The notes: a model not told the origin generated them from the letters alone. 64,000 nucleotides of DNA from an uncultured virus (IMG/VR IMGVR_UViG_2811995017_000004) (IMGVR_UViG_2811995017_000004:62001-126000); one strand, 5' to 3'. Counted from the stretch's first letter, positions 580 to 60,523 are shown. Numbers and translations: made by a program.

Positions 580-1029
580 TTATTCTTCATCGATGTAATC
601 GTACCAAGAGTATCCGAAAGGATCATAGCCGTTAACATTTAATTTTACGCCAGCTTTTTCAAAATCATCTAATGTCCAAACAGGTTTATCTTTTAATAAA
701 TTGTTCAATTTATCAAGCATATCTCCATTATAGTCGCCGCGAAAGCGTAGTTCATTGATTAGCTTTACATTGTCCGCTTTTTTGATAATAATTGCTGTTT
801 CAGTTTGAAAAACTCTTCCGATGCCACTTTCAATATCTTCTTCCTCAAGGTCATACCCTGAAACATTCACAAACACTACAGCATTTTCATCTTCATGCAA
901 TTCAAAAAAGTAGCTGAAATCATTGTTGTTTAATTTGTTTACTTCCATCAAACCTTCAATATCTTCAATCCTTTTATCACTGTTAAGCTCATTCCATTCG
1001 ATTTCAATTTTGACTTTGGGCAGTTTCAT
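580..1029 (-). CDS. acidic hypothetical phage protein
   Basis: 149-aa ORF with GAGGAG RBS. Confidence 0.75.
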   Translation of the reverse strand: MKLPKVKIEIEWNELNSDKRIEDIEGLMEVNKLNNNDFSYFFELHEDENAVVFVNVSGYDLEEEDIESGIGRVFQTETAIIIKKADNVKLINELRFRGDYNGDMLDKLNNLLKDKPVWTLDDFEKAGVKLNVNGYDPFGYSWYDYIDEE

Positions 1030-1122
1030 TTTGTCTCCTCATTTCTTTGATATTGATCTGTATTTGGATTTCGAAATTTGTTATTCTTATAAAGCTGACT
1101 TTATTTTTTGAAGGTGATTTTT

Positions 1123-1302
1123 ATGGAGAAAGAGTTTGAAACAAAGGGTTATGATACTTCTATTGTCTACGACTACAAAGAATATCCAGATGCTCATCAT
1201 GGCCGATGTGACAATTGTGACAATACCTTGTTTAAAAGCTCAGTTAAGGACGGCATATTCTTGCGGGAATGTCGCCGCTGCGGGATGAAGAAGAGTATTT
1301 AA
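1123..1302 (+). CDS. small zinc-ribbon protein
   Basis: CDNC...CRRC motif; AAGGTGA RBS before ATG 1123; opposite strand to neighbours. Confidence 0.7.
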   Translation: MEKEFETKGYDTSIVYDYKEYPDAHHGRCDNCDNTLFKSSVKDGIFLRECRRCGMKKSI

Positions 1303-1352
1303 CCGCTCTTCTTCCGCTGCCTGTTATGTTAAAATGCTTCTTTTATTTAAAG

Positions 1353-1574
1353 TTACTTAACGGGAAACATGTAGCTAACATAAACGTCAATATCCCCATT
1401 CTTAAATACTGCAACTTTATCAACATCAGGCTCAATTTTGTTTATAATCTCTTTAGCATCCTTGTTTTTCTTCGGTGTATTTGCAGTAACAATCCAATTC
1501 CAGTAATTCCATTCAGAAATACATGCCTTGATCTCTTCAGGGATTCTATGTCCGACTGTATAAGCCTTAATCAT
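1353..1574 (-). CDS. hypothetical protein
   Basis: 73-aa ORF overlapping the upstream stop (ATGA coupling). Confidence 0.65.
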   Translation of the reverse strand: MIKAYTVGHRIPEEIKACISEWNYWNWIVTANTPKKNKDAKEIINKIEPDVDKVAVFKNGDIDVYVSYMFPVK

Positions 1575-2083
1575 CCTGCAGCCTCCAATTCGTTCAACAT
1601 ATTCTTAACCCTTGCAATCTCTTCTTCTGAATGAACAGTACCGCCTGTGTTCAATTCAATATACCACTTAAGAACATCTTTCTTTGTAGGAAGATCGTTT
1701 ATAACAAACTCTAATGCAATCAAATTACTCAAACTATCTTCGTATTCACCTAAAAAGTGCCCAAATACAGGGATTTCATTATTGAGGAATCTTAAACATG
1801 CTGTTATTCTTTGTAAACCATCAACACATACAAATTCACCTTCAGGCTTTTTCATCCAACCTTTTTGATTCAGATAGACTGGAGTTGTTTTACCACCCCT
1901 CAATAAATGTTCAACGAATTTAACTTGCTGCTCTTCAGTCCATACATGACCGCGCTGAAAGTCTGGGTTAAGCTGCAACCCTTCTTCAATATACGTTTCT
2001 ATGGTGCTTTTTAAATATTTTAAAGGATGATGTACCCTATAGTTACCATCTTTCGTATAAGGTTTGATATCCGAAAATTTCAT
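1571..2083 (-). CDS. stand-alone DUF262 (ParB/GmrS-like) domain protein
   Basis: PDFQRGHVW and VDGLQRITA motifs, ELNTGG at C-terminus. Confidence 0.85.
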   Translation of the reverse strand: MKFSDIKPYTKDGNYRVHHPLKYLKSTIETYIEEGLQLNPDFQRGHVWTEEQQVKFVEHLLRGGKTTPVYLNQKGWMKKPEGEFVCVDGLQRITACLRFLNNEIPVFGHFLGEYEDSLSNLIALEFVINDLPTKKDVLKWYIELNTGGTVHSEEEIARVKNMLNELEAAG

Positions 2084-2132
2084 AAGTGATCTCCTCTCTA
2101 TGTATTAAAATCAAATGAAAGAGTTGTTTTAT

Positions 2133-2318
2133 TTAAACTTTTTGCAGTGTTTTAATATCATTAGCAGAAAGGCACTGCCATCCGTTTTCCTTTGTATACA
2201 AATCATACCGCCCTGTATCATTTAGAGTTTCTTTAATAGCGTCTATTGAGTTGAGATTCCATCCAATTGAAGGATCGTTTAAAAGCGTCTGACCATCATT
2301 CAAAATTATTCGCAACAT
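2133..2318 (-). CDS. hypothetical protein
   Basis: 61-aa ORF, AAGGAAGG RBS. Confidence 0.6.
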   Translation of the reverse strand: MLRIILNDGQTLLNDPSIGWNLNSIDAIKETLNDTGRYDLYTKENGWQCLSANDIKTLQKV

Positions 2319-2349
2319 ATACAGCGCCCTTCCTTATAAAATCGTAATT

Positions 2350-3590
2350 TTATATAAACTCTAACAATACAGTTGTAAAAATACCGATCAATGATGCAAT
2401 GAGTGATAAAGTTGCTATTAGTATAACTAAATTTTCCTTCTGAATAGAATAAGCCATTTTAATATGATCAAAGCATTCCTCATAGATAGTATTATATTTC
2501 TTTGTATATTGCCCATTTTCAAAACTAATTGAATCTTCTTCTTCCCCCCATAAAAAGGTGTCCAGTTTTCTAATAATTCTTTAGAATCGCGATAGCCCTG
2601 ATGTAGTTTATTATCATTTAATGAACGTATTTTGTTAATCAACCATTTATAATCGTTTAGGGAGACCCTCTTTTTTGAACCTGAAAAATATTTGTTAATC
2701 CTTGAGTCAATTTCAAAACTTTCTATTTTTTCGAATAGAAAATAATAAAAATCCATCCTATAATTAGAAAGTAGTTGCAAAAAATTCATTGCTGAATATG
2801 CACCAGAAAAGTACAAATTCATTTTTAATCCTTCTTCGCTCGTTAAATCAACAACCAGATATTTATTTTCAATTTCATAAGTTCTACAGAGAAAGACATC
2901 GTTAAAATACTCGTTTTTAAAATGTTCTTGAGGAACATAAACTGCGTTATATTGTGGCAAAATATATTCGCTTCCAAAATTCAATCTAAACGTATTTAAT
3001 AGCTTTGCTTGCAGGGCTGCATCTCTAACCTTAGAAATAGAATTATAAATCAAGGAATAATGCTCTGATCTAATTATTTTATCAATATCGTAACATCCAA
3101 AAAACTTTTTCTTGTAAAGCAGCTCTTTATTTTCTTTTATGAAATCAATCCAGAGCTCATGAGTCATAGATTTTTTAAATGAGATTCTAAATTCAACTAC
3201 TGCTTGATTATTATTTATTTGTGTAAAACCTGCTTCCACATCATCTATAAATAAATCATCTAAAAAAGTTACTTTGCATAACGACCGCGTACTAGAACGA
3301 TCGTATTGGATATTCAAATACATTAAATTCTTATATTTTTTAGGAATTAATGAAAGTTCAATTCTGTATTTTTTATTATTTAAATTATGTATTCCCTTTA
3401 TTAAATTGTTCAATTGTTTATTATTAAAAACATCAAAAAATGTAACTTCCCAAACACCTATATTATAGTTAGATAAAAGCTCTTCTTTATGAGTATTAAT
3501 GAATTCTAAATAGCTTTCATTACGCTCTATGGTTTCAAGAAATTTATTAATAAATTTTTCTCGGTATTTATGTATCTCTCTTTTTCGCAA
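2350..3590 (-). CDS. hypothetical protein with C-terminal membrane anchor (apparent frameshift in G-run near 2545)
   Basis: ORF 2427-3590; adding one G extends it to LVILIATLSLIASLIGIFTTVLLEFI and a stop at 2350-2352. Confidence 0.65.
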
Positions 3591-3638
3591 AAAGCATCAC
3601 CCTTATTCCAATTACTATTACTATATAAAAGACTGGTT

Positions 3639-3950
3639 TTATTCTAACTCTTGATCAGAAGAATCTTTCTTTTCCTTTTTGCTTTCCTTGATCTTATGTA
3701 GCAGCTCATTCATTTCTTTAGCATCGTCTTCAGGAAGCAAATCAGACTTTAAAAGAAATTCGTTTGCTTCCCCAACCACATGCGCGGTCATTTCCAAACA
3801 CTCAAAATGGATCTTGGATAATTCGCGGAGCTCTTCTTTTGTAATTGATCCATCATGCAGTTTAAACAGCAACTCTTTCAATCTTTCGACATGTGTGCTA
3901 AAAATTAAAGATCTAACTGAAGTTGAGCTGTTATCCATTTGATTTATCAT
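3639..3950 (-). CDS. hypothetical helical protein
   Basis: 103-aa ORF. Confidence 0.6.
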   Translation of the reverse strand: MINQMDNSSTSVRSLIFSTHVERLKELLFKLHDGSITKEELRELSKIHFECLEMTAHVVGEANEFLLKSDLLPEDDAKEMNELLHKIKESKKEKKDSSDQELE

Positions 3951-4039
3951 CCTTTTTCAATGACTTAAGAAACCCACAAAAATCTCTCTAATGATTCCTT
4001 TAAAAGTATGATTTCATTCAAACTTACTTTGAGATAAAC

Positions 4040-4255
4040 TCACTCATCTTTTTCGAATTTTATTAAATCACCTGGTTCACAGTTGAAATGCTTACAAAGC
4101 TTATCAAGCAATTCCCGTGGGTATCGTTCCATGTCATCGTTGTACATTTTTCTCACAGTTTCTTTCCCATGATTTATTTCGGCACTTAACCGAGAAATTG
4201 AGATACCTGCTTCATCTGCGATAGCCTTTAAATTTGATCTAATCATTTTTCTCAC
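4040..4255 (-). CDS. Cro/C1-type helix-turn-helix regulator
   Basis: SISRLSAEI...[16 protein letters not shown] is a typical XRE/Cro HTH. Confidence 0.85.
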
Positions 4256-4265
4256 CTCTTATTCA

Positions 4266-4294
4266 ACTTTACTTTGACTACTTAAAAACGTCAA
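4266..4294 (-). promoter_or_regulatory. sigmaA-type promoter with palindromic operator upstream of the HTH gene
   Basis: Minus strand TTGACG-N17-TAAAGT; TTGAC...GTCAA dyad overlaps the -35. Confidence 0.65.
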
Positions 4295-4318
4295 TCAAAA
4301 TTTTCCTATTTCAGAAAA

Positions 4319-4486
4319 TGCCCGTGATTTTTCAAGTTGGCTGTTATATCGTTTCCGCAAAAATTGCCCGCAACTTTTTACCGCTGCTGTTATACTGTTT
4401 TAATTTTTTTAGTGAGCTATGTGGCATCTTAAAAAATCCATTTGTGTACAAAATTTTGCCCGCAATAAAGGATAAGAGCTGTTATA
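4319..4486. repeat. three bipartite repeats TGCCCG-N16-CTGTTATA
   Basis: Copies at 4319-4348, 4365-4394 and 4457-4486, each with an exact 16-nt spacer. Confidence 0.85.
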
Positions 4487-4644
4487 CGCTTTATAAAGGG
4501 TATCCCTTTTTGGTTGCTTTAAACTCTTTTTAAAATGGTGTTTTTATTCAATTCTGTCGCCTTTCTTTTTGATTTTCTTTGAACAGCACGATCACCATTT
4601 ACTCAATAATAGTACGGCCGTGTAAATGTGGGTCAAGATCAACC

Positions 4645-4851
4645 TTATAAACGATTTTCGTTTTTTGTTTGGTTAACTTTTTCAGCTTTATCAGAAGACG
4701 CTTTAATCCTTTCACTAACCTGCTTAAATTGTTCTTTTGCCTCTGGGGTCTCTAAAGCTCCAAAGAACTTATCAGCAAACTCATCCCCTAAAGTCTCCGC
4801 CGACCGCTTCTTAAATTCTTCTTTATCCTTATCCAACTTTAACCCTCCCAC
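4645..4851 (-). CDS. hypothetical protein
   Basis: 68-aa ORF; may extend past an A-run frameshift. Confidence 0.5.
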   Translation of the reverse strand: MGGLKLDKDKEEFKKRSAETLGDEFADKFFGALETPEAKEQFKQVSERIKASSDKAEKVNQTKNENRL

Positions 4852-4968
4852 TCTTTTTGTTGCTTAAATATTAACATCTTTAACGGCATCATTCATTAAT
4901 TAATCAAATTACACTTTATAAACACAGTAGCAGCCACCCGAAAACAACGTTCGTCATTTTAATTTGTT

Positions 4969-5181
4969 TTAATGATAGCAAGGCAGCTCCGCGCACCATT
5001 CAAGATAATCGTTAATACTGCCGCCATACTGCTGTTGGTATTCAATATAGCCTTCCGCAAGCTCATCTAGTACCTGTTCCTGGCTTCCCCATTCTTTGGA
5101 CAAGTCTGAAGACTCTGGAGAAAGCAAGTACAATTTAATTTGCTCTCTTGTTACTTGGAATTGATTGTTATGTAAGATCAT
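4969..5181 (-). CDS. hypothetical protein
   Basis: 70-aa ORF, GAGGAG RBS. Confidence 0.7.
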   Translation of the reverse strand: MILHNNQFQVTREQIKLYLLSPESSDLSKEWGSQEQVLDELAEGYIEYQQQYGGSINDYLEWCAELPCYH

Positions 5182-5224
5182 TGATTAACTCCTCTTTCTT
5201 GTTATATTAAAACAAAGTATACTT

Positions 5225-5641
5225 TCAAATATTTCTTAACCTTTGTGCTAATGCTTGTTGATATTTTTTCCCTTCCTCAGTAGCTGAACAGTCAATTAAA
5301 TTAAGTGTATGCCCACCTTTTTCTATAGCCTCTAATAATTGATCTCCAACATCGCGGTTAACCCATTTCTTATGTTTTCTTTCGAACATGTACGAAAAAC
5401 CAAAATTGTTTTGGGTATATAAGTTAACTTTACAACTATAAGAAAGACTCTCTATTGCTATTTTAGAAGCCAAAATAATTGATCTGTTTTGTGTCCTCTC
5501 TAAGCAAGTAAAATATGTTTCCTTCGCTATTTCTTTATATCTATGTATTACAACAGCCTTTCCGGATTCAGCAGGCGCTTTCTGTAAGACTCTAACGAAT
5601 ATATCAATTTCCATCATAGACATAATATTCACCTTTTCCAA
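5225..5641 (-). CDS. hypothetical protein
   Basis: 138-aa ORF; true start may be the internal Met after AAGGTGA. Confidence 0.65.
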   Translation of the reverse strand: MEKVNIMSMMEIDIFVRVLQKAPAESGKAVVIHRYKEIAKETYFTCLERTQNRSIILASKIAIESLSYSCKVNLYTQNNFGFSYMFERKHKKWVNRDVGDQLLEAIEKGGHTLNLIDCSATEEGKKYQQALAQRLRNI

Positions 5642-5661
5642 AGATTTTATATTATATCCAA

Positions 5662-5907
5662 TTATCCCACATATTCCTTGAAATGCTCAATATCATTTAA
5701 GATAAAACTCCGTGTCATTGATATTTTTCTATACAGAGCAAGGACTTTTCTATTTTCCCTTTCCCATTCAGGATTTTTCAAAATGGGAATACAAAACTCT
5801 TTTTCTAGCTCTGTCATGAGAATGGCAAGTTTTTCATCTTTTGTTTTTTCTGTAAAATTAGAATTTAAAATATCTTCGTATCGATTTTGATATTCTGACA
5901 ATATCAT
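5662..5907 (-). CDS. hypothetical protein
   Basis: 81-aa ORF, GGAGG RBS. Confidence 0.7.
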   Translation of the reverse strand: MILSEYQNRYEDILNSNFTEKTKDEKLAILMTELEKEFCIPILKNPEWERENRKVLALYRKISMTRSFILNDIEHFKEYVG

Positions 5908-6033
5908 TGTCTCATTCCTCCATTCTGTCTAAACTGCTCCTTATCAGTAATTGCAATTACATGTTTCATGACTTCTCCACATTCTGGACATTATCAAGCA
6001 TTCTTTACCCTCCTATCTGTTTGAACAACTGTT

Positions 6034-6247
6034 TTATTTTCTGTAAAGCAAACCGCTTTTTAGTTCTACATTAAGTATTTCTAAAGAATCTTTGTCAAAT
6101 TCAACAGGGCTTGACTGCATATAATCTATATAAAAATCAAGAGCATGATCAGGATTACAAAAAAAACTCGCTGCACCATTTGCTGTATTCTACCTCTGTT
6201 TTATCGGTTATAGGTTTACCACACTGTCCGCACTTTATTTTTCTCAT
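6034..6247 (-). CDS. small Cys/His zinc-finger protein (apparent extra base in homopolymer near 6160)
   Basis: MRKIKCGQCGKP...EFF(C)NPDHA; removing one T restores the frame to a stop at 6034-6036. Confidence 0.55.
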
Positions 6248-6288
6248 TAGAAAAAAGTCCTTTCTGTTTAGAACTGCTGTTTTATTCA

Positions 6289-6531
6289 TTAGTTTTCAAA
6301 AATCAGTTTTGTTTTATTGCCTATTAAAGAATCTGATAATATAACATTTTCATATTCGTCATATTCTAACTTAGAAAGATAAACTTTAAAGCCTTTTTTA
6401 TTGCTTGATTTTATCAGATTTACGAGTTTTTCTGCTTCATTAAGCGCACTATTTTCAGTTAAAAAACTATTCATTTTTTCCCCGCCGTTATTGGATTTCA
6501 ACACTACGCCGTAAAGAGTTTTAATATTCAT
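6289..6531 (-). CDS. hypothetical protein
   Basis: 80-aa ORF, AGGAGG RBS. Confidence 0.7.
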   Translation of the reverse strand: MNIKTLYGVVLKSNNGGEKMNSFLTENSALNEAEKLVNLIKSSNKKGFKVYLSKLEYDEYENVILSDSLIGNKTKLIFEN

Positions 6532-6803
6532 AATATCATTTACCTCCTATGTAAAATTGTTGTTTTATTTAGAGTCCAAGTACCTTTTAGCTACTTCATC
6601 AATGTGCTTTTCAAGCCCTCCAATTGTTGCTCGTGTATTATTTCTCGCACATTCTCGAATATAGATCGTTACGTTTTCGCCTAATTCTGTGAGCCAATTT
6701 TCTCCACACTGTCCTTCATATGCTTTTCTTTCATACGATTCCAGCTTTTTCTACAAATCTTTTTCCCCATTTCAACCTTCTCCATTCTGTTTAAATTACT
6801 GTT

Positions 6804-7073
6804 TTATTCATCCTTAGAAAATTGTCTATTGAAAAGTTCAATCGCTCTATCATAGGTTGCTAATTGTGCGAGATGTTTGTCAATATTACTGCCATTTCCT
6901 TGCAAGCCATCCGATATATATAATTGCTGATTGTTTTTTAACTTTGATTCTAAATTATCTAACATGTTACGAATGCTTGAAATTTCATTCTCTAATCGCA
7001 TTTTAGCCTGTTCTCTTTCTGCTTCAAGTATAACTAGGTTCCTATTTTCTTTCGTCATATCATTCTCTTTCAT
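6804..7073 (-). CDS. hypothetical coiled-coil protein
   Basis: 89-aa ORF, GGGGAG RBS. Confidence 0.7.
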   Translation of the reverse strand: MKENDMTKENRNLVILEAEREQAKMRLENEISSIRNMLDNLESKLKNNQQLYISDGLQGNGSNIDKHLAQLATYDRAIELFNRQFSKDE

Positions 7074-7106
7074 TTCAATCTCCCCGTTCTGTTTAAAATA
7101 TGCATT

Positions 7107-7301
7107 TTATTTATTTAGTAGTTGATACACGTTTTCCATACTGTCCATCATGTCAGGAAACACTGTATGAAATACTTCTAGGTCATACTCTTCTAAAAGC
7201 ACATTTTCTAATTCTTCGTACTTCTCATCAATTTCTAGTTCGTATTCTCTAGCTACCATTAACATTGATTTAAATGCATGAATTAAATCAATTTCATTCA
7301 T
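7107..7301 (-). CDS. hypothetical acidic protein
   Basis: ORF from MNEIDL with AAGGA RBS. Confidence 0.65.
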   Translation of the reverse strand: MNEIDLIHAFKSMLMVAREYELEIDEKYEELENVLLEEYDLEVFHTVFPDMMDSMENVYQLLNK

Positions 7302-7455
7302 ATTATCATTCCTTTTCTTTTTAATTCGCATTTTAATCGCGATAAATAATATAGAGTTATTCCTGTTGCAACCTACCCAATAAGGGGAACGCTGGCGGCT
7401 TAATGCCTAGTTAACGTCACCGCCACGACTGTTATACTGTGTCTGATATATCCTT

Positions 7456-7668
7456 TTAATTTGTTTTATTTTTATTTAATAAGCTTTTTTGTGTCATTAC
7501 CCAGTCACCGATTTTTTCAACCACTTCACAGAAATCATTATCAAATGGATAATCATCACAAAGATTACTATCTGTTATGCTGTCGGCTTGCTCCCAAGAT
7601 TCCCGGATTTCATATGCTGAATTTTTGAACTGCATTAATGCGTTTATTAATTTTTCGTTGTGTGTCAT
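7456..7668 (-). CDS. hypothetical protein
   Basis: ORF from MTHNEK with GGGAAGGA RBS. Confidence 0.65.
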   Translation of the reverse strand: MTHNEKLINALMQFKNSAYEIRESWEQADSITDSNLCDDYPFDNDFCEVVEKIGDWVMTQKSLLNKNKTN

Positions 7669-7700
7669 TGTTAAATCCTTCCCATCTATGTAAAATATCT

Positions 7701-9891: not shown

Positions 9892-11121
9892 TTAAATTTT
9901 GTTTTCAAGCCAGTTTTTTAACAATCCCCTCATTCTTGCAGATGGAACATATATATTTATTGTTCCTCCGTTTCGTATAGCTGATCTCCAAATCCATTGA
10001 ATCATCTCAGATAACGCATAGATATCTTGGTTAATTAATATTCCTTTTGATCTGAAATAATCGTCAATAGCTGGATTGACAAATCTGTTTATTGAATAGA
10101 CTAATGTCTTTTTGTGGCTATATTCATTTGTTGCCTTTGTATTGCAAGGTAAAAAGCCTTTTGTGTATCCCTTCCCGCTCAATTTGCTTTTATGTGTTTT
10201 GAATGTTGTCCAAAGATTATCTTTTGATTTTGATTTAATAATATTTTGATAATAATTTAAGATATTATTTTTAAGTCTTTTATGTAGTGCTGAACGTCTT
10301 TCAAACCAGTTTTTAGATAATGCATATTTGTCATCACCTATTTTGTTTAATTGCCCTTCATATATCTTTATTTTGTCTTTTAGATCCGCTTTTATTTTCT
10401 TATCATTGTCTTTATTATAGTTAATTAGTTTATATTCATTCCCATCGTTAATTACTGTGTATAGACTGTATTGAATATTATTCAGATCATAATAATATTT
10501 TTGTATTTGGGCATCAAACAAATAAGTTAAATTATATACCTGTTTAAACTGTTTAAAGATATCGGCTGGAAATTGCCAAAAAAGAACGCTGTCGTTATGT
10601 AAAATTAAATTTCTGCTCAATGCTAATTGTTTAAGGTTTTGAAATTCTCCTTTGTATTCCCTGTTTAACTTTTCTTCATGTTCTGCATTCCAAACAATTT
10701 GACCGTTATTATTTATAATCCATTTGTTTTTAAACAGCATATCTAAATCATCTTTTGATATGTTTAATTTTTTTACAACCTCCATAGCTTCATCTAGGAT
10801 TAGTGTATAGTTACCAGAATAAATAAGTTCTTTTGTTGTTTCATTAGCCATGCTAAATAATGCGTGTGTTGTTACAATATCTCTGTTTTCTGCTAAATAT
10901 TTGTGAAGTGAATCAAGTTTATATACTGTTTCCCCTTCCTCGCTGTGAACTTTAGGTTCATAAAATTTTCTATTCGTACATGATTTCTTTATTCTTGCCA
11001 CCTCATCAAGATAAGGCGTAATAAAAATAAAGTGTTCATCTTCTGAAGAATTATTCATCATATTAATTACATACGTTGTTTTGCCGCTTCCCATTATTGA
11101 ATCAATTACTTTAACTTTCAC
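9892..11121 (-). CDS. yonV: YonV-like P-loop NTPase / SF2 helicase-like protein
   Basis: Walker A MGSGKT, Walker B LILDE, motif VI-like QWIWRSAIR; 409 aa as recalled for SPbeta YonV. Confidence 0.8.
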   Translation of the reverse strand: MKVKVIDSIMGSGKTTYVINMMNNSSEDEHFIFITPYLDEVARIKKSCTNRKFYEPKVHSEEGETVYKLDSLHKYLAENRDIVTTHALFSMANETTKELIYSGNYTLILDEAMEVVKKLNISKDDLDMLFKNKWIINNNGQIVWNAEHEEKLNREYKGEFQNLKQLALSRNLILHNDSVLFWQFPADIFKQFKQVYNLTYLFDAQIQKYYYDLNNIQYSLYTVINDGNEYKLINYNKDNDKKIKADLKDKIKIYEGQLNKIGDDKYALSKNWFERRSALHKRLKNNILNYYQNIIKSKSKDNLWTTFKTHKSKLSGKGYTKGFLPCNTKATNEYSHKKTLVYSINRFVNPAIDDYFRSKGILINQDIYALSEMIQWIWRSAIRNGGTINIYVPSARMRGLLKNWLENKI

Positions 11122-11986
11122 TATAACGACTCTCCTTTTTATTATGTTTTATCCAACCTTTTAGGATATCCTCCATTCTTTTTGAAGCAACATAAATGTG
11201 AATAGGTTTATTTATATTTGAAACATCTACAATCCATTTAAGTAAAACCGAAAGCGCATAAGTCTCTTCAGTAAGATCTTTTAATTCTTCATATTTTCGT
11301 TTCAAAAATGGATTCAGAAAACAATTCGCCGCAAAACAAAGAGTATTACGTCTGTCATCCTCTTCAAGTTTATCTGTCAAAGGGACAAAAGACTTGATAT
11401 TACCAACATAAGATAACCTTTTATACTGTTGTGTAAATGTTGTCCATGCCCTGTCGTTATGGACAGTTTTAATTTGATTCGCAAAGTAATTGTTTATGTT
11501 AAGCCTTAATCTTTTTACCCCTTCACTATTTTTATTGAACCATAGTTTAGAATAGTCATATTTACCATTACCATATTTAGATAGATTGCCTTTCTTTTCG
11601 TGTATATTTAGATTTTTAATTAGTTTATTTTTGATTTCTTCATCCATTCTGTCAGAAAAGAAAACACTGTTTAAAAAGTCTACAGGTGCTGACTTTCTCT
11701 TTAATGAAGTGTCCAACATCACATTATAAAGGGTTGATACATCTTCCCCATCTATCCACATTTGTTCGATTTTTAATAAGTCTTTCTTGTCCTCAACATA
11801 TTCCAACACTTCAAAAGTGAAATCATTCAAACTGTATTTTTTCCAATCTTTTTGTAACAGGTGTGAATGATGCAACCCATAGTGCAGATCAGTCACATGC
11901 TGTTCCCATCTTTTGAATACATTTGAACTACTGCCTATATACTTCTTCCCGTTTTGTTTATTTGTTATTTGGTAAACGCCTTTCAT
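11111..11986 (-). CDS. GIY-YIG nuclease fused to a paralog of the YonV C-terminal domain
   Basis: GVYQI...YIGSS..V.KRW..H N-terminus; C-terminal half aligns by eye with the YonV C-terminus. Confidence 0.85.
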   Translation of the reverse strand: MKGVYQITNKQNGKKYIGSSSNVFKRWEQHVTDLHYGLHHSHLLQKDWKKYSLNDFTFEVLEYVEDKKDLLKIEQMWIDGEDVSTLYNVMLDTSLKRKSAPVDFLNSVFFSDRMDEEIKNKLIKNLNIHEKKGNLSKYGNGKYDYSKLWFNKNSEGVKRLRLNINNYFANQIKTVHNDRAWTTFTQQYKRLSYVGNIKSFVPLTDKLEEDDRRNTLCFAANCFLNPFLKRKYEELKDLTEETYALSVLLKWIVDVSNINKPIHIYVASKRMEDILKGWIKHNKKESRYSES

Positions 11987-24225: not shown

Positions 24226-24521
24226 AATGATAAAGCCTTTCTCAAAATTAATCGTATATAATGATGAAGATATTGAAGCTATATACATAATTCGTTTTAC
24301 ATGAGAAAAACTTTAGGAGGATTTTAATGAAACTAAGAAGGTTTTTAATTGAAAAGTTGGCTGGGAACTGACCTGTAGCCCTTAATTTAAAAGTAAATGG
24401 AACATTGGATGCAGATAAAACAAAAGAAGGTTTGTTTAAAAACATTAAGTGTATCTGAATAAATCTTTAATTTTATTTGAATTTAAAGATCATTAAGAGG
24501 GTATGATTCCCCTCTTAATGA

Positions 24522-37033: not shown

Positions 37034-37082
37034 ATTTCGATAAAATACAAGTTTTATGCAAATCAATATAAGGAGGCGTGTA

Positions 37083-40595: not shown

Positions 40596-41597
40596 ATGGC
40601 AAAAGAAATTAAGAAAAATATGATACGCCCCCGTGCAAAGAAGCTGCCTGAAGTAACTGATGAAATGTGGTCTCAGGTTGATGAAGAGCACAGAAATTTA
40701 ACACAAGAATTTTTGGACGCTCACTCATTCCGTGATAAAACAAGAAAACAGTACACCTCTTCCCTTCGGCAATTCTTTTGGTGGGTGCATAATTCTCTAA
40801 ATGGAAAAAAATTATACAAAATCACTAAACGTGACTTCATTAAATATCAAAGTTTCCTAAAAAACAGAGGCATGTCTTCTAGTGGTATTGCGCTTAAAAA
40901 AGCTGGTGTTTCTTCTTTAAACAACTATATTGAAAATGTTGTAGCTGAAGATGATGACAATTATAAAACATTCAGGAACTTTACCCGCGGCCTCCCTGCT
41001 ATTCCTAAGACAGTCACTTATGAGAAAGTAAAGATTACATATGAAGACTATCAAACAATGATGAATACGCTTGAGGAAGATGAGAATTATTTGGGAATGG
41101 CCTGGCTTGCAACGGCTTTTAACGTAGGTGCCAGGAGAGCTGAAATCATTCAGTTTAAGACAGAAATCTTAGATTACCCTATCCCTGCCGGACAACCATA
41201 TGTGTTGTCACATAAAGTGTTTGGTAAAGGAGGCGGTGAAGGCAAGGTATTGGAATATATGATTAACACCGAAGCTCTAAAATATTTAAAGTTGTGGCAT
41301 GAAAAACGTGGATATGACCATGAATACCTCTTTACCACTACATACGGTGGACAACCAAAACAAATGTCAGAAACGTGGGCTGATTATTTTTGTTCTGATG
41401 TTCTGTCAGACATTCTTGGCCGTAGAATCAACCCTCACCTATTTAAAGCCTCTTGTATTACCTACTTACTCGAAGTCAAGAAAATCAAGATTGAACTTGT
41501 CAGCAAATACATCGCTCAACATGAGGATGTTTCCACTACAATCAAACATTATGATCTTCGTGATTTTAAAGAAGAAAAGAACCAAATATTTATGTAA
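40596..41597 (+). CDS. yomM: tyrosine recombinase
   Basis: GARRAE (Arg I), GKGG (Lys), NPHLFK, QHEDVSTTIKHY (Tyr); 333 aa. Confidence 0.9.
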   Translation: MAKEIKKNMIRPRAKKLPEVTDEMWSQVDEEHRNLTQEFLDAHSFRDKTRKQYTSSLRQFFWWVHNSLNGKKLYKITKRDFIKYQSFLKNRGMSSSGIALKKAGVSSLNNYIENVVAEDDDNYKTFRNFTRGLPAIPKTVTYEKVKITYEDYQTMMNTLEEDENYLGMAWLATAFNVGARRAEIIQFKTEILDYPIPAGQPYVLSHKVFGKGGGEGKVLEYMINTEALKYLKLWHEKRGYDHEYLFTTTYGGQPKQMSETWADYFCSDVLSDILGRRINPHLFKASCITYLLEVKKIKIELVSKYIAQHEDVSTTIKHYDLRDFKEEKNQIFM

Positions 41598-41736
41598 AAT
41601 CACTCTTTTATTCAAAATCAAGATCCCTTCCCTAGAGGGGGTTTTGCTTTTGAGTGAAATAAAAATTTTGTAAAAAAAGAAGGTATTTCCTCCTATTCTG
41701 TCGAATCGATTATTCATCAAGTTTTGGGAGGATCAA

Positions 41737-42414
41737 ATGCTTAAACCTGATTTTAGCAAGTTTAACAATTTATCAAATAATATTAAGGCTTCTGATTCAG
41801 AAAAAGTATGGAGAGAGTTTCTCCTCACATCTTTTAACTTTGTAAATCACTGTTCTTATAAAGTTAATGAAGATGAGCTGTCAGAAATAACAAAGAGCCT
41901 ACAGAACTGGATTCAAAGAAGGCGGTTTAATCAGTATAAGGAAAGGAACAATATAGTAACACCACAACAAGGGGAAATCTTTTTAGCCGATTTAGGACTA
42001 AATTTCGAATTTGCTTATTGTCATCCTGTTCTAATTCTCGATGAAATTGAAAACAAATTGATCGTGTTACCTGTTACATCAAGTCCTGACAAAGTGAAAG
42101 ATGCTTTTCATCCAATAACAAATCCTTCTGGACTTAAACGTTACAGGAGGGTTACTCCTGCTGATGGATTTGAATCTGAATCAGCTATTGTAATGGATGA
42201 ATTGAGGATTATAAGTAAAGGGCGATTATTGAATAAGATATCCTCTTTGAATGAAGATATTTATTTAGTGGGATCAATTTTTCAAGAAGTAATTGAAACT
42301 TCCTTTTCATTGCTTTATAGCTTACAGTATCAAAAAATCAATGACATGGAACAAGAAATTGCTGAACTAAGAGATGAAATAAAGGTTTTAAAAGAAAAAA
42401 ACCATCAAGTTTAA
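41737..42414 (+). CDS. PemK/MazF-fold protein with N-terminal extension and C-terminal coiled coil
   Basis: QGEIFLADLG...HPVLIL...IVLPVTS...S.IVMDELRIISKGRL. Confidence 0.8.
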   Translation: MLKPDFSKFNNLSNNIKASDSEKVWREFLLTSFNFVNHCSYKVNEDELSEITKSLQNWIQRRRFNQYKERNNIVTPQQGEIFLADLGLNFEFAYCHPVLILDEIENKLIVLPVTSSPDKVKDAFHPITNPSGLKRYRRVTPADGFESESAIVMDELRIISKGRLLNKISSLNEDIYLVGSIFQEVIETSFSLLYSLQYQKINDMEQEIAELRDEIKVLKEKNHQV

Positions 42415-42456
42415 AACAACCATTGACAAAATAAAAACTTAGATGTATTATAATAG

Positions 42457-42550
42457 TAACAAAAATGTTAATCGCTTTTTAAGAGTGCATCCTTACAGAG
42501 ATGCACCGATTAATAACCAATCCCACTTATCATTAAGTGGGATTTTATTT
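42457..42550 (+). ncRNA. putative small RNA downstream of the PemK-fold gene
   Basis: TTGACA(42423)-N17-TATTAT promoter, stems TTAATCG/CGATTAA and GTGCATC/GATGCAC, terminator AATCCCACTTA/TAAGTGGGATT. Confidence 0.6.
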
Positions 42551-42856
42551 TTATATTTGATCTAGGATAGCTAAAAGTTCCGGGTCATTAATTTTGAATA
42601 CTATAAATTGAATATAATCAATTTTGTTTGTGTCAGGGAAATGCAAAGTGGTTATAGTAAAGTTCGTAGCGTGTTTTCCAAAAAGTCCAGCAATACGCAA
42701 AGCGACGTCTACATTCTCAAAATCAATATCGAAAGATACAAACTCTTGATACTCTTGATTCACATAATAGTTCTTTATTTTTGTATCCTTTGGATTTGAA
42801 GGATTTGACGCAGAATTAAGAAGTTTCTTGAATTTCTCAGGATCGAAGTTCATCAA
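42551..42856 (-). CDS. hypothetical protein
   Basis: 101-aa ORF, GGAGG RBS. Confidence 0.75.
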   Translation of the reverse strand: MMNFDPEKFKKLLNSASNPSNPKDTKIKNYYVNQEYQEFVSFDIDFENVDVALRIAGLFGKHATNFTITTLHFPDTNKIDYIQFIVFKINDPELLAILDQI

Positions 42857-42962
42857 TGTTCAACCTCCAATATTTTGGTAATTAAAGTATAGCACATTGT
42901 CATATCCCCCTCTTTAAAATTTTCCACATTTGCCCGATAATAGGATCGAGGTGAATGATGGG

Positions 42963-43422
42963 ATGTTTAGATGGTGGATTAGGAAAAGGAATAAACTAAA
43001 AAAAGAGCCTGAAGATTTAGGAGAGGTATTGCTAACGTGGCCTGATGAAGAAATACAGAAATACATTAGAGATTATTTTGGTTATAGTTCAAACAAAAAC
43101 AAGAAAATCGAGCTTCAACGAATTAGACGGCTTGATTTAGATACAGTCATACTTGGTATCGCAAGGATGAAAGAAATCGAGGAGTCTTTCGACAATTCGA
43201 AGACAGTTCCCAGTTTAATTGCGGCAACTGTTTTTATGCTTACTCAAATTTTCAATTATTATACAGATGACGAAATGTATCGATTGTTCCTTATTCTGGT
43301 GTCTTACATTATTTTCTTCGTTTTTCTATTTGCCTATTAAAAATGGTAGTGATCATCGATCCCGAGCAGCTCAATATACGAGCTTACTGGAACAGGTGAA
43401 ATCGGAAAAAGAGAAACAGTAA
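42963..43422 (+). CDS. two-TM membrane protein, paralog of 44944-45417 (apparent frameshift in T-run near 43321)
   Basis: Shared RRLDLD..ILGIA/RGLDND..FYGIA, FD.SK and SLLEQVK.EKEK. Confidence 0.7.
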
Positions 43423-43497
43423 GCAAAAGAGGATACAGAAAACCACGCAGTCTGAATCGATGTTATAATTGAGGAAAATATTACTGGTGGTGAGAAA

Positions 43498-43872
43498 ATG
43501 ACTGAATTGAATGCAAAAGAAAGGGTTTTAGTCGCCCTTTATTTAGAATATCAAAAGGATTTACCTATGCTTGAAAATGTAGATGCAAACTGTTTAGGAA
43601 TGAGTCAGCAAATGTTTTACGAAGCAATTAAAAAGCTTGAGAACGAAGGATTCTTAAATAATGTTAAATATACGAAGCCATACGGCGTACTTTTGCAGTT
43701 TGCTTATCTCAGTCGCTTTGGAATAAATTATGTTGAAGAAAAATTGAAAATTGACGAACACCTTAGTAAACCTGAAAAACTTAAAGAGATAGCACGCAAA
43801 CTGGCTAAAGGTGGCTACAATGAAATAAAAGACATAGCAATAAAATTGGCAGCAGAATTACTTAAAAACTAA
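43498..43872 (+). CDS. YjcQ-like winged-helix protein
   Basis: LGMS...FYEAIKKLENEGFL...LSRFGINYVEE. Confidence 0.7.
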   Translation: MTELNAKERVLVALYLEYQKDLPMLENVDANCLGMSQQMFYEAIKKLENEGFLNNVKYTKPYGVLLQFAYLSRFGINYVEEKLKIDEHLSKPEKLKEIARKLAKGGYNEIKDIAIKLAAELLKN

Positions 43873-43964
43873 CCAAGGCATCCTAATGGGTGTCTTTTTC
43901 AATTTGAGATATGTGGTGAATTATCCAACATTTTTCTGTAAAATTAATTTAAAGGAGTGTCAGG

Positions 43965-44690: not shown

Positions 44691-44833
44691 TTCTTCTTTA
44701 TTTTCGGCGGATTTAATATTAATGATGGTTTATCGGCTGAATTTTGCTCATGTCTTGGTGTGTTCATTGCATTCTCAGTCGGTCTACTATCTGGTCTAAT
44801 TTCTGCTGCTCTGTTATCTGGTCTTTTTTCCAT
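44687..44833 (-). CDS. 48-aa hydrophilic peptide (below the ORF-track cutoff)
   Basis: AGGAG RBS; MEKRPDNRAAEIRPDSRPTENAMNTPRHEQNSADKPSLILNPPKIKKN; stop overlaps the convergent gene. Confidence 0.55.
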   Translation of the reverse strand: MEKRPDNRAAEIRPDSRPTENAMNTPRHEQNSADKPSLILNPPKIKKN

Positions 44834-45417: not shown

Positions 45418-45457
45418 CGGATGTCTTTTTTATTTTGAAATTGAAGGTGAAAAGCCC

Positions 45458-57883: not shown

Positions 57884-60523
57884 GTGTCGGTACTGTTTCA
57901 AGAGGTATCAAGATCATTCAATTTATTAAAGCCCAAACTTTCCCTAGCCAAAGCAAATAAAAAGAAAATCGCCAACCTGGTTGATGTCTCAAACGTTAAT
58001 TTGACTATAAAGTTAGGCGAAATTAATGAGCTTTCCTTCACTGTGCCTTTGAAAATTGAGATAGACAAACAATGGGTAAAGAACCCCCATCTCAAGAGAT
58101 TGAAGCTCCGAAGGCTGGTGAAATTGTCTGCTTATAATTTCAAGGATGAATGGTTTATCATCAAAACTAAGCAAAAATCAGGGGCAGAGAATGAATCAGT
58201 TACATTTACCTGTATGTCTTTAGCTCATCAATTAAGCTACCGGAAAGTCAGAAGGTACGAAGTCACTTCCTATAACATGAAACAGGTAACTGATGATTGT
58301 TTTGCAAATACGAACTGGAAAGCCGGATATATCAATCCACTATTCAATGAAAAATTCAGGAGTTTTGATATCACATCTTCAACCAAGTTAGATTTCCTAA
58401 TGAAAATTTGTGAAACGTTTGAAGCTGTTCCGGTGTTTGACACTATAGAAAAAAAGGTTCATTTCTATACTGAAGATGAAGCGTCAAAATATAAAGGAAT
58501 GAGAATTAAGTACGGCCAATACTTAGACACCATTGAAGACACTGAGGAGCTTGAAGAAGTTTGCACCAGGCTTTATGTGACTGGTAAAGATGATCTTTCA
58601 ATTAACGCGGCCAATCCAACCGGACAAGCATACATTGAAGATTTTACGTACTACCTCTACCCTTTTGAACGAGACAAGGATCGAAATGTAATATCCCATA
58701 GCTATGAGATGAGTGATGAATTATGTCATGCCATTCTTGACTTTAATGAGTTCATCGATTCTCAAACAGAAACGTTCTCCTCCCTTCTTGCTCGACAAAC
58801 TGAAGAAGAAAAGAAATTGGCCAAATTGAAAGCTCAAAAGACGCAGCTTGATTTAGAGCTTCAAGTTATTTTGGATAAGATTGTAGTCGCAACTGAAGCG
58901 AAAGATCCCACTGCTGAATTGATTAAAGAAAGAAATGCGAAAGAAGCAGAGATTGCTGCTAAAAAGAATGAAATCAAAAACAGGGAGAATTTGATTGCCG
59001 ATATTCAAAACAAAATTACACTTTTAAAGGGAAAATTAACCCTTGAAAGTCATCTTAGCAATGAACTCAAAGAAGAGTTGGCTGAGTTTATCAATGAGCA
59101 AGAATGGTCAAATGACAACCTATATGATGAAACTGACCTTTATGAAGCTGGTCTGGAGGAAATGAAGAAACGAAATACCCCACCAGTCAATATCACAATG
59201 AGCATCGTAAACTTCTTTGGCATCATAAGTGAACATCAAAACTGGAATCGGCTTTCTATTGGGGATATTATTCGAGTTCAACACGACCGTTTAGGCATCG
59301 ATGTTAAAACAAAAGTAATTGAAATGAGTTTTGATTTTGAATCTAATAAGATCAATTTGACTATTTCAAACTCAAAACGTGTTGAGACTGTAAAAGAGAA
59401 AATGGTTAAGCTCGTTTATACCATAAATCACATCGACAATGATTATGCTGTTAGAAAAATTGATTGGATGAAGACTGCGGAAAACTTCAACATCAGGAAT
59501 GATCGAATTTCTACTCCTGTCGCAGCCCCTACGGTTAAATCAGATGGGACAGCGATCTCTCATGAATACAACGATAATGGATCGGTTGATATTGTTTTGA
59601 AATGGGAGTATCCAGAATCTGATGAAGATCAGTACAACATAGATGGATTTGAAGTATATCTCTATTCCAGCGAATCATCTGATGAATATATTTTTGGTTC
59701 TAAGATGAGTCATGAGGAAATGGTAAATGTGAAGTATGATAAGCGTTCCTATAAATTCACGGGATTAGCATCAAATAAATACTACACATTAGGTGTTAGA
59801 GCCTACCGTAGGGTTGATGCAGATATTGAAAGAGCAGGAATTATTCTTTCAGATATTGCTCAATCGAAACATGCTTCTGAAAACCCCTACCTCCCTTCTG
59901 CTATTGCTGAGGTCAAAGGGAGAGTGAATGGATTAATTCAAGCAGTTTCTGAGGTAAGACCAGAAAATCCGGATGTAAACACTGTTTGGATTAATCCCAA
60001 AACGAATAAACAGGAACTTTACGACGGTGAAAAGTGGATTGAGCAATCCGTTACATCCGCTGAATCTTTGAATGGATACACTGCTGAAGTTGCATCAACT
60101 CCTAATACAATAGCTGTTCGAGATGAAACAGGAACAATTAATGCTTCAATTACAGGAAGTGCAACTCAACTCGGCGGTTATGATTCATCTGCGTATGTTC
60201 TTAAGTCTGATCTCCCCTCTTCTCCTCAATACGCAACAGGAGAGTACATCGGTGACGGAAAGCAAAGCAGATCAATTAGTTTAAACTTCATTCCTACTTT
60301 GGTCAAGATTTATTCTACTTCCCCTACTGATTCAACACTTATCATTCAAAACAGTTTAGGTGGCTACTCAATTCAAAATGGAGAAGCAGGTTCCTACCTT
60401 AAAGGCGGCGATAAAACATACGGGTCAATGAATTTGAATTATTTTATTACCGGCTCAGACATCAACACACGCGGAAATAAGCTGAACGTTAAATATATTT
60501 GGGAAGCATTCAAACAAAATTAA
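57884..60523 (+). CDS. yomG: Tal-like tail tip protein with FN3-like domain
   Basis: CTRLYVTG, L.IGD.IRV; FTGL..NKYYTLGVRAY; 879 aa. Confidence 0.8.
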   Translation: MSVLFQEVSRSFNLLKPKLSLAKANKKKIANLVDVSNVNLTIKLGEINELSFTVPLKIEIDKQWVKNPHLKRLKLRRLVKLSAYNFKDEWFIIKTKQKSGAENESVTFTCMSLAHQLSYRKVRRYEVTSYNMKQVTDDCFANTNWKAGYINPLFNEKFRSFDITSSTKLDFLMKICETFEAVPVFDTIEKKVHFYTEDEASKYKGMRIKYGQYLDTIEDTEELEEVCTRLYVTGKDDLSINAANPTGQAYIEDFTYYLYPFERDKDRNVISHSYEMSDELCHAILDFNEFIDSQTETFSSLLARQTEEEKKLAKLKAQKTQLDLELQVILDKIVVATEAKDPTAELIKERNAKEAEIAAKKNEIKNRENLIADIQNKITLLKGKLTLESHLSNELKEELAEFINEQEWSNDNLYDETDLYEAGLEEMKKRNTPPVNITMSIVNFFGIISEHQNWNRLSIGDIIRVQHDRLGIDVKTKVIEMSFDFESNKINLTISNSKRVETVKEKMVKLVYTINHIDNDYAVRKIDWMKTAENFNIRNDRISTPVAAPTVKSDGTAISHEYNDNGSVDIVLKWEYPESDEDQYNIDGFEVYLYSSESSDEYIFGSKMSHEEMVNVKYDKRSYKFTGLASNKYYTLGVRAYRRVDADIERAGIILSDIAQSKHASENPYLPSAIAEVKGRVNGLIQAVSEVRPENPDVNTVWINPKTNKQELYDGEKWIEQSVTSAESLNGYTAEVASTPNTIAVRDETGTINASITGSATQLGGYDSSAYVLKSDLPSSPQYATGEYIGDGKQSRSISLNFIPTLVKIYSTSPTDSTLIIQNSLGGYSIQNGEAGSYLKGGDKTYGSMNLNYFITGSDINTRGNKLNVKYIWEAFKQN

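What the first reader, a model, noticed from the sequence alone, without database searches (positions are those of the whole stretch)
1330..7335. Integron-like cassette array: a 16-bp TAAAA-N6-TTTTA site closes most small early genes, and also the yomM recombinase
Seen: inverted 5-bp arms around a variable 6-bp spacer occur perfectly at 1330, 2337, 3626, 4531, 6552 and 7094, and with 1-3 mismatches at 2116, 4001, 5212, 6021, 6269, 6791 and 7320. In seven cases (2337, 3626, 5212, 6021, 6552, 6791, 7094) the stop codon of the upstream gene is the first 3 nt of the site. The site is then usually followed by a short leader and RBS for the next gene (AACAGAATGGAG-like). A perfect copy sits on the yomM stop codon (41595-41610), at the head of a second accessory hotspot, and another at 37041. 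A rough expectation at about 33% A and T is about one perfect copy per 60 kb, versus six in 6 kb. Established: inverted arms flanking a 6-8 bp overlap is tyrosine-recombinase core-site geometry, and Tn916-type integrases tolerate heterologous 6-bp spacers. Inference: these genes are mobile cassettes shuffled by a phage tyrosine recombinase. Alternatives are protein-binding or RNA-processing signals.
Basis: partly seen in the sequence, partly recalled or inferred. Interest (0 to 1): 0.85.

Follow-up and report, generated by a model that had tools for sequence, protein, structure and literature searches.

The report
Numbered gene-swap joints in Bacillus phages
A short mirror-image DNA word sits between many genes of this large Bacillus phage; each copy has its own six-letter centre, and related phages trade genes where two copies share the same centre, so the copies look like numbered joints for swapping genes, although the enzyme is not shown.

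Summary
The motif is real and genome-wide: 8 exact copies in the window (1.0 expected) and 27 in this 129-kb SPbeta-like phage. It is a 28-bp imperfect palindrome (11+6+11) with a strict 6-bp spacer. It is not integron- or Tn916-like. In 36 related records each spacer occurs once per genome, in a conserved order, while neighbouring genes are replaced. At junctions the partners almost always share the spacer (83-90% identical, chance 0.9%; repeated in 50 further loci). Allele switches inside alignable DNA also concentrate at sites (42 of 200 places, against 15 of 638 motif-less joints and 21 of 325 mid-gene points), although this comes mainly from named B. subtilis phages. Best reading: spacer-matched crossover points that let related phages swap modules at fixed addresses, probably through a tyrosine recombinase (0.6). 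The enzyme is unshown. YomM is not singled out: unrelated recombinases fill its slot in four genomes with the same addresses. Against: about half of junctions lack a site, and three lab hybrids needed none. The scan found this motif and the address reading before on other genomes. Ten literature searches found no description.

The parts
1324..1351 (-). 28-bp site (core 1330-1345), spacer GAAGCA on the coding strand
   Evidence: exact core; score 19.3; G001 has the same upstream gene and spacer followed by a different 348-aa gene; metagenome contigs diverge here
2110..2137 (-). 28-bp site (core 2116-2131, right arm TTTCA), spacer CAACTC
   Evidence: score 13.3; same upstream gene and spacer with another downstream gene in G012
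2331..2358 (-). 28-bp site (core 2337-2352), spacer TTACGA; stop of the upstream gene at position 1
   Evidence: the upstream gene is a 415-codon open frame in G001 and frameshifted in the window
3620..3647 (-). 28-bp site (core 3626-3641), spacer CCAGTC; stop of a 103-aa gene at position 1
   Evidence: BLAST ends at 3622/3626 in relatives; contig loose ends at 3626
3995..4022 (-). 28-bp site (core 4001-4016, left arm TGAAA), spacer TCATAC
   Evidence: score 18.6
4525..4552 (-). 28-bp site (core 4531-4546), spacer ACACCA
   Evidence: spacer in 10 other genomes, both flanks different in 8
6263..6290 (-). 28-bp site (core 6269-6284, right arm TTCTA), spacer CAGCAG
   Evidence: score 17.8; spacer in 19 other genomes, both flanks different in 18
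6546..6573 (-). 28-bp site (core 6552-6567), spacer CAACAA
   Evidence: exact; spacer in 20 other genomes, both flanks different in 17; the BUCT083 match ends at 6554
6785..6812 (-). weak site (core 6791-6806), spacer CAGTAA; stop of an 89-aa gene at position 1
   Evidence: score 10.1, below the threshold of 13 used for the comparisons
7088..7115 (-). 28-bp site (core 7094-7109), spacer TGCATA, first address of the early arm
   Evidence: exact; spacer in 28 other genomes, both flanks different in 22; also in phage FADO
24454..24481 (.). late-region site (core 24460-24475, 1 mismatch), spacer CTTTAA read on the - strand
   Evidence: the same address in SPbeta and phi3T
37035..37062 (.). late-region site (core 37041-37056)
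   Evidence: exact; score about 22
40596..41597 (+). yomM-like tyrosine recombinase, 333 aa; candidate catalytic residues R180, K211, H281-x-x-K284, H309, Y319 (second Arg replaced by Lys)
   Evidence: 86.5% identical to SPbeta YomM; integrase families; residue positions; matching them to the R-K-H-R-H-Y set is my reading
41589..41616 (+). 28-bp site on the yomM stop (core 41595-41610), spacer TCACTC (TCCCTC in relatives)
   Evidence: the address follows three different slot recombinases at +4, +56, +277/+280 and +402 bp
59005..59032 (.). late-region site (core 59011-59026, 1 mismatch)

Best explanation
The sites are fixed, spacer-matched crossover points ('addresses') spread along the genome of SPbeta-like and related large Bacillales phages. 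A dimeric protein binds two common 11-bp arms (TYTnnWTAAAA / TTTTAWnnARA). The 6-bp centre differs at every site, so a site can exchange only with the same-numbered site of another phage genome (co-infecting phage, prophage or remnant). One crossover makes a mosaic. Two crossovers replace the block between two addresses, as in recombinase-mediated cassette exchange. The left arm often supplies the upstream stop codon and the right arm leads into the next ribosome-binding site, so exchange leaves genes whole. Unique, asymmetric spacers would protect the genome from deleting or inverting itself. Shown: anatomy, uniqueness, order, spacer identity at junctions, and concentration of exchange at sites. 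Inferred: cleavage at the spacer borders by a tyrosine recombinase. Unshown: which enzyme. My odds: YopP family 0.35, YomM slot 0.3, host XerC/D 0.1, other 0.25.
For: (1) Strict N6 and a 28-bp consensus palindrome from 745 contexts. The outer arms do not covary within single sites, so this is a duplex protein site and not a hairpin. (2) Junction pairs with one flank shared and the other unrelated have identical spacers in both classes: 89.4 of 108 (upstream shared) and 98.5 of 110 (downstream shared) weighted flank types, chance 0.9%. Replicate in 50 further loci: 170 of 189 and 194 of 213 pairs. (3) Shared identity stops at arm variants: position 15 is at chance in upstream-shared pairs (0.83 vs 0.82), and in 10 pairs identity ends 0-2 bp from the spacer. 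(4) Order is conserved, also in FADO. Single addresses have up to 16 unrelated upstream and 18 unrelated downstream flank families. (5) Anchor-free: 380 of 1002 sharp junctions lie at a site in both genomes. (6) Inside alignable DNA with the central 16 bp identical, sharp allele switches occur at 42 of 200 site places (23 addresses), 15 of 638 motif-less joints and 21 of 325 mid-gene points. (7) 0 of 185 spacers are self-complementary (4.2 expected, P 0.015; genome-wide 6-bp palindromes are only at 0.8-0.9 of expectation). Within genomes, 5-of-6 spacer matches number 21 vs 39 expected. (8) Spacers stay 0.99 identical where flanks are 0.74 (20 pairs). (9) YopP keeps R, K, HxxK/R, H and Y in 7 of 7 aligned proteins and has a homologue in all 7 motif-rich phages compared (SPbeta, FADO, E3, Perkons, the Staphylococcus SPbeta-like phage, Tsamsa, BcoS-136).
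Against: 544 of 1002 sharp junctions have no site in either genome. Three lab phi3Ts-SPbeta hybrids cross in kb-long identical tracts, one switch has no site, and none uses a site-only homology. The paper reports 15 of 16 sites in homologous regions (bioRxiv 2020.05.06.055103, section 15; its supplementary table was not visible). The allele-switch excess is clear among named B. subtilis phages (36 of 116 vs 11 of 340 and 14 of 177) but not among unnamed prophage pairs (4 of 53 vs 5 of 223 and 5 of 106; 0 of 25 with 28 bp identical). Perfect identity on the unshared side runs longer than chance (9 bp or more in 26% vs 3% of upstream-shared cases), which homology-driven recombination also predicts. 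Zero identical spacers within genomes is only against 2.6 expected. No recombinase tracks the motif by sequence: YomM-slot proteins are 24-35% and YopP types 29-46% identical among phages with the same addresses, and phiL47 has both families but few sites (7). Genome pairs are not independent.
Confidence: 0.6

Rival explanations
1. The palindrome is the binding site of a non-recombinase protein (architectural or regulatory). Exchange falls there because the 16-28 bp site is the only identity between unrelated neighbours and is used by short-homology recombination (host RecA or a phage annealing protein), as with PeSL linkers.
For: It also predicts identical spacers, conserved order and long shared tracts on the unshared side. 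Lab hybrids cross in long homology. SPbeta has a precedent for a recombinase fold turned repressor, MrpR (PMC10516654, passages and section 31).
Against: Switches still concentrate at sites where both flanks align (median 89% identity on the diverged side) and where control points have an equally long identical centre. Asymmetric, non-repeating spacers and a strict 6 bp are not needed for a linker. Some junctions share only about 14-17 bp.
Confidence: 0.27
2. An RNA-level or transcription signal (processing, termination or promoter element) at gene joints. Breakpoints coincide with it only because recombinants at gene borders survive.
For: It lies between stop codon and ribosome-binding site (432 of 638 downstream contexts have RBS plus start within 54 nt). 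Motif-less gene borders are also common breakpoints (472 of 1002).
Against: No covariation of the arms. No terminator at any site and no clear promoter excess in 1000-7700 (1 terminator-like vs 2.5; 40 promoter-like vs 30.1 +/- 5.2). Joints with a site break far more often than joints without (438 of 613 vs 781 of 2699). It does not explain spacer identity between partners.
Confidence: 0.08
3. One reading: integron- or Tn916-like cassettes, each carrying its own site, excised and re-inserted in any order by YomM regardless of spacer.
For: Breakpoints fall at sites. A site sits on the yomM stop. A minority of junctions join neighbouring, unlike addresses.
Against: Spacers match in about 90% of junction pairs, order is fixed, and no direct repeats flank cassettes. 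Adjacent spacers are no more alike than distant ones (1.80 vs 1.76 matches). The orientation is opposite to the Tn1549 target. The YomM slot is itself swapped.
Confidence: 0.05

Closest known systems
pdif sites and dif modules of Acinetobacter plasmids (XerC/XerD; PMC6449649, three passages seen)
   Same: 28 bp built as 11+6+11, conserved inner palindrome, variable outer parts and centre, many copies delimiting exchangeable gene modules.
   Different: The sequence is not dif-like (B. subtilis dif as printed in PMC3025954 scores -8.6 on the profile; sites score 13 or more). The arms are near-symmetric, early-arm copies lie in direct orientation, and spacers are unique and ordered. It is a phage, not a plasmid.
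Heterospecific lox/FRT sites used for recombinase-mediated cassette exchange (recalled, no call)
   Same: Common arms, asymmetric spacer that must match between partners, swap of the block between two different spacers.
   Different: Engineered, two or three spacers. Here about 35-45 natural addresses per genome with 11-bp arms and a 6-bp spacer, and no enzyme shown.
PeSL linkers of T4-type phages (PMC2839356, passages; PMC4122927, term search with no hit for Bacillus, palindrome or recombinase)
   Same: Repeated intergenic elements at which accessory genes are gained, lost and replaced.
   Different: PeSLs are promoter plus terminator stem-loop, recombine within one genome and give mini-circles by homologous recombination. 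These sites have no promoter or terminator and carry unique spacers.
Tn916/Tn1549 conjugative transposon sites (PMC5871717, passages)
   Same: AT-rich 11-bp imperfect inverted repeats around a short crossover region.
   Different: Target TTTT-n6-AAAA (opposite orientation), 5-7 bp centre, no spacer homology needed. Here the centre is strictly 6 bp and matched.
SPBRE, the MrpR (YopR) operator of SPbeta (PMC10516654, passages and section 31)
   Same: A repeated intergenic element of the same phage, bound by a protein of tyrosine-recombinase fold.
   Different: 15-bp motif with ten ChAP-seq peaks in promoter regions. This motif has 34 exact copies in SPbeta, largely at joints inside operons. The SPBRE sequence itself (a figure) was not visible.

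Membership tests
Integron cassette array | Integron integrase (IntI) beside the array (feature recalled) | tested here: not met
   YomM and the genome's YopP have no hit to TIGR02249. Two relatives' recombinases hit it far below its cut-off of 265 bits (19.9 and 27.4).
Integron cassette array | attC sites that fold as long single-strand hairpins of variable length (recalled) | tested here: not met
   Fixed 28 bp, 5-bp A/T stem, no within-site covariation of outer arms.
Integron cassette array | Single-gene cassettes inserted at one attI site and reordered (recalled) | tested here: not met
   Order concordant in 54,298 vs 818 pairs; 250 of 985 blocks hold one called gene.
Tn916/Tn1549-type sites | TTTT-n6-AAAA target orientation | tested here: not met
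   TTTTA-N6-TAAAA has 0 copies in the early arm against 25 for TAAAA-N6-TTTTA; consensus.
Tn916/Tn1549-type sites | Crossover without spacer homology, 5-7 bp centre | tested here: not met
   Spacers identical in 83-90% of junction classes; N5 and N7 not enriched.
dif/pdif (XerC/XerD) | 28 bp as 11+6+11 with conserved inner palindrome | tested here: met
   Profile of 745 contexts; definition in PMC6449649.
dif/pdif (XerC/XerD) | Arms resembling host XerC and XerD binding sites | tested here: not met
   B. subtilis dif scores -8.6 and -8.2.
dif/pdif (XerC/XerD) | Recombination by host XerC/XerD | not testable with these tools
   Needs codV/ripX mutants or an in vitro assay.
PeSL linker | Strong promoter plus terminator stem-loop in the element | tested here: not met
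   no terminator at sites, promoter-like matches near background.
PeSL linker | Gene gain and loss at the element in relatives | tested here: met
PeSL linker | Mini-circles from exchange between neighbouring elements | tested here: inconclusive
   Only assembled contigs were available. Joints at sites were replacements with unknown sequence between.
Tyrosine-recombinase core site with homology-dependent overlap | Inverted arms around a fixed 6-8 bp asymmetric overlap | tested here: met
Tyrosine-recombinase core site with homology-dependent overlap | Overlap identical between partners, crossover confined to it | tested here: met
   (bracketed to about positions 4-11 in 10 pairs; later point mutation cannot be excluded).
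Tyrosine-recombinase core site with homology-dependent overlap | A cognate recombinase binds and cleaves at the overlap borders | not testable with these tools
   Candidates only.

The most novel reading that the evidence does not exclude
SPbeta-like and Tsamsa-like phages carry a natural, genome-wide cassette-exchange grid: one tyrosine recombinase, about 35-45 orthogonal 6-bp addresses in fixed order, used to swap whole modules (and alleles) between phages without deleting or inverting the genome. It would be the enzymatic form of the modular theory of phage evolution and a ready library of orthogonal recombination sites.
Probability: 0.5. Interest if true: 0.92.

Novelty: new variant of a known kind. 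Interest (0 to 1): 0.75.

Why it matters
Phage mosaicism is usually put down to illegitimate or homologous recombination filtered by selection. Here a model phage family appears to carry dedicated, numbered joints that account for about four in ten sharp mosaic junctions. This makes the old linker idea directly testable in B. subtilis with SPbeta and phi3T. It would give the unexplained recombinases YomM and YopP a possible job, predict where defence and anti-defence genes enter these genomes, and could supply many orthogonal sites for genome engineering.

Tried and rejected
Reads: only assembled contigs were held. Food-fermentation metagenomes show variants diverging at or near sites 1346, 3626, 6573 and 7111 but no clean excision joint; contigs cannot show RNA ends, so RNA processing was not tested. 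Lab hybrids: uninformative on site-only crossovers (3 hybrids; the first 20 kb of Hyb2 not examined). Insertion-duplication footprint: none. Host dif likeness: rejected at sequence level. Host-wide motif: extended pattern matches in three Bacillus genomes (21, 16, 37; N7 control 1, 2, 2) cluster on a few contigs and carry phage addresses. MrpR/YopR as the acting protein: homologues occur in SPbeta, FADO, Tsamsa, E3 and BcoS-136, but MrpR lacks catalytic residues and gave ten peaks at SPBRE. YomM as owner of the site at its stop: rejected. A search with the 78-aa window ORF 43-279 found nothing in 17 records. The PDB search with YomM gave only weak Cre matches (E 7e-4). One search printed site positions one base off; corrected from then on. 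Literature: ten searches found no description of the motif. Term searches in bioRxiv 2021.11.22.469490 (SPbeta relatives; no hit for 'motif' or 'yomM'), PMC7648647, bioRxiv 2023.04.06.535777, PMC5467207 and PMC13492144 gave nothing on it. The 1999 SPbeta genome paper and the 2023 sro-operon paper were not seen. No structure, complex or large protein search was run.


Full report
Setting. The window is bases 62,001-126,000 of a 129,459-bp provirus record. It is SPbeta-like: its yomM is 86.5% identical to SPbeta YomM, and its YopP is 98% identical to a protein in a Bacillus glycinifermentans contig. The reported stretch is the start of the early arm, whose genes run on the - strand.

Observation. 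The eight exact copies are present (expected 1.02; 0 of 100 shuffles reach 8). The genome holds 27, of which 25 lie in the 72-kb early arm. Other spacer lengths from 0 to 12 give 1-3 copies, and the inverse arrangement gives 0. Three of the seven mismatched copies named (5212, 6021, 7320) fail a 28-bp profile and 6791 is marginal. The stop codon falls on position 1 at several window sites, but in only 143 of 591 upstream contexts across relatives. 29 of 101 same-strand early-arm joints of this genome carry a site.

Anatomy. I compared 36 records: this genome, fetched regions (mainly the early arm) of 21 unnamed prophages and 14 named B. subtilis phages. From 745 distinct contexts the consensus is TYTnnWTAAAA-N6-TTTTAWnnARA, an imperfect 28-bp palindrome of 11+6+11. 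The outer arms are complementary only in consensus, not within single sites. That fits a duplex protein site and not a hairpin. No terminator and no clear promoter excess accompanies the sites. At profile score 13 or more there are 1150 sites with 185 different spacers. None is self-complementary (4.2 expected, P 0.015; general palindrome avoidance in these genomes is only 0.8-0.9).

Addresses. Within a genome a spacer is not repeated: 3 of 19,059 pairs are identical, all three inverted. Counted as distinct pairs, 0 are identical against 2.6 expected and 21 match at 5 of 6 against 39 expected, a modest signal. Between genomes the order is kept: 54,298 concordant against 818 discordant pairs, the latter mostly from two addresses moved in one clade. 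The flanks change: the 25 commonest addresses have 4-16 unrelated upstream and 3-18 unrelated downstream families. The window's TGCATA, CAACAA and CAGCAG sites recur in 28, 20 and 19 other genomes, with both flanks different in 22, 17 and 18, and in the same order in the distant phage FADO. Exact counts, N6 against N7: FADO 33/9, SPbeta 34/3, E3 30/1, Perkons 17/1, Staphylococcus SPbeta-like 17/4, Tsamsa 23/3, BcoS-136 23/2. They are low in phiL47 7/0, VPE25 7/2, SEP9 10/1, 015DV004 2/1 and 276BB001 0/0, where the reversed-pattern control is close (3, 4, 9, 0, 0). In three Bacillus genomes the extended pattern clusters on a few contigs with phage addresses.

Junctions. Where one 60-bp flank is at least 93% identical and the other unrelated, the spacer is identical in both classes: 89.4 of 108 and 98.5 of 110 weighted flank types, chance 0.9%. 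In 50 further loci (20 duplicates of the first set dropped) it is 170 of 189 and 194 of 213 pairs. The spacer therefore belongs to neither gene; both partners must have it. Identity stops at arm variants (position 15 at chance), and in 10 pairs it stops 0-2 bp from the spacer. Without anchoring on sites, 380 of 1002 sharp junctions lie within 20 bp of a site in both genomes, 78 in one and 544 in neither, most of those at ordinary gene borders. Joints with a site break in 438 of 613 cases, joints without in 781 of 2699.

Site-directed or just short homology? Both models predict matched spacers, so I tested DNA where both flanks align. With the central 16 bp identical in the pair, a sharp switch from identical to diverged sequence occurs at 47 of 365 site comparisons (42 of 200 places, 23 addresses). 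It occurs at 16 of 1535 motif-less joints (15 of 638) and 29 of 727 mid-gene points (21 of 325). The excess is clear among named phages (36 of 116 vs 11 of 340 and 14 of 177; with 28 bp identical, 17 of 69 vs 7 of 266 and 10 of 145). It is not seen among unnamed prophage pairs (4 of 53 vs 5 of 223 and 5 of 106; 0 of 25 with 28 bp). Pairs are not independent. Identity on the unshared side runs somewhat longer than chance, which favours a homology component. Three lab hybrids of phi3Ts and SPbeta cross in long identical tracts, one without a site, and none at the six site-only homologies the parents share. This matches the authors' report of homologous crossovers (bioRxiv 2020.05.06.055103, passages and section 15; supplementary table not visible). 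Site-directed exchange, if real, is not the dominant short-term route between close relatives.

Enzyme. YomM has R180, K211, H281-x-x-K284, H309 and Y319 (assignment mine). Four of 12 near-complete prophages lack it. They have a different tyrosine recombinase there; the two I translated sit in the same tail-operon slot and are 24-35% identical to YomM and to each other. They keep the same addresses, including the one behind the slot. The yomM stop on a site is thus not special. One partner's enzyme would be enough for an exchange, so this does not exclude YomM. YopP (genome 55,425-56,525, outside the window) keeps R, K, HxxK/R, H and Y in 7 of 7 aligned proteins. Its family is in all seven motif-rich phages compared and also in phiL47, and it is transcribed in lysogens (bioRxiv 2021.11.22.469490, passage). 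I recall that it was described as an auxiliary repressor, but that paper was not held. It also varies (29-46%). MrpR/YopR is inactive and binds SPBRE (PMC10516654). Host dif scores -8.6 on the profile.

Mechanism and comparison. Most likely (0.6) a dimeric tyrosine recombinase binds the common arms and exchanges strands across the 6-bp overlap only when it matches, so related phages swap blocks between equal addresses. The main rival (0.27) is short-homology recombination at a site bound by a non-catalytic protein. It works like heterospecific lox exchange (recalled) and has the geometry of pdif sites (PMC6449649). It fails the membership tests for integrons, Tn916-type sites, PeSLs and, by sequence, dif.

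Novelty. Ten searches of the held library found no description; subscription papers, including the original SPbeta genome paper, were not searchable. Earlier notes of this scan report the motif on other genomes. Several also give the address reading, which I saw after reaching it; they are not independent support. I rate it a new variant of linker-mediated modular exchange, with an even chance that it is a categorically new multi-address recombination system. Interest 0.75.

Noticed in passing
window 2353-3590, 6034-6289, 6565-6770: Three early genes look frameshifted in homopolymer runs. The first is a 415-codon open frame in G001 and the third is an annotated gene in BUCT083. All four runs show an extra T after 4565.
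   Followed up: partly
L001 / G001 next to the GAAGCA site (window 1330): A 348-aa gene absent from the window follows the same address in G001; it looks DUF262-like by eye, not tested. The window's own gene 1571-2083 has a GmrSD N-terminal domain.
   Followed up: no
window 41737-47505: Accessory block after yomM: PemK/MazF-like gene (41737-42414), DUF6338-like (43965-44690) and DUF4062-like (45700-46635) genes.
   Followed up: no
L265, L270, L271, L272 (G006, G016, G021, G014): The yomM slot is filled by unrelated tyrosine recombinases in these prophages; at least three types share one position in the tail operon.
   Followed up: partly
L405 (G022:C82) and L404 (G024:C10): Host genomes carry a second cluster of the first addresses (TGCATA, CAACAA, CAGCAG) apart from the main prophage, a possible reservoir of modules.
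   Followed up: partly
SPbeta 99498 and phi3T 89340: At the same place in the order, some phages have spacer TGATAA and others its reverse complement TTATCA, with unrelated flanks.
   Followed up: partly
18 nt after the right arm: A second word, roughly AWTTAAAA, follows 144 of 1150 sites before the ribosome-binding site.
   Followed up: no
window 11111-11986: GIY-YIG homing-endonuclease-like gene directly upstream of the yonV-like gene.
   Followed up: no
window 6804-7073: This 89-aa gene also occurs in unrelated 52-kb phages that have no sites (276BB001) and far from this region in SPbetaL6 and Goe11, so genes also move without the addresses.
   Followed up: partly
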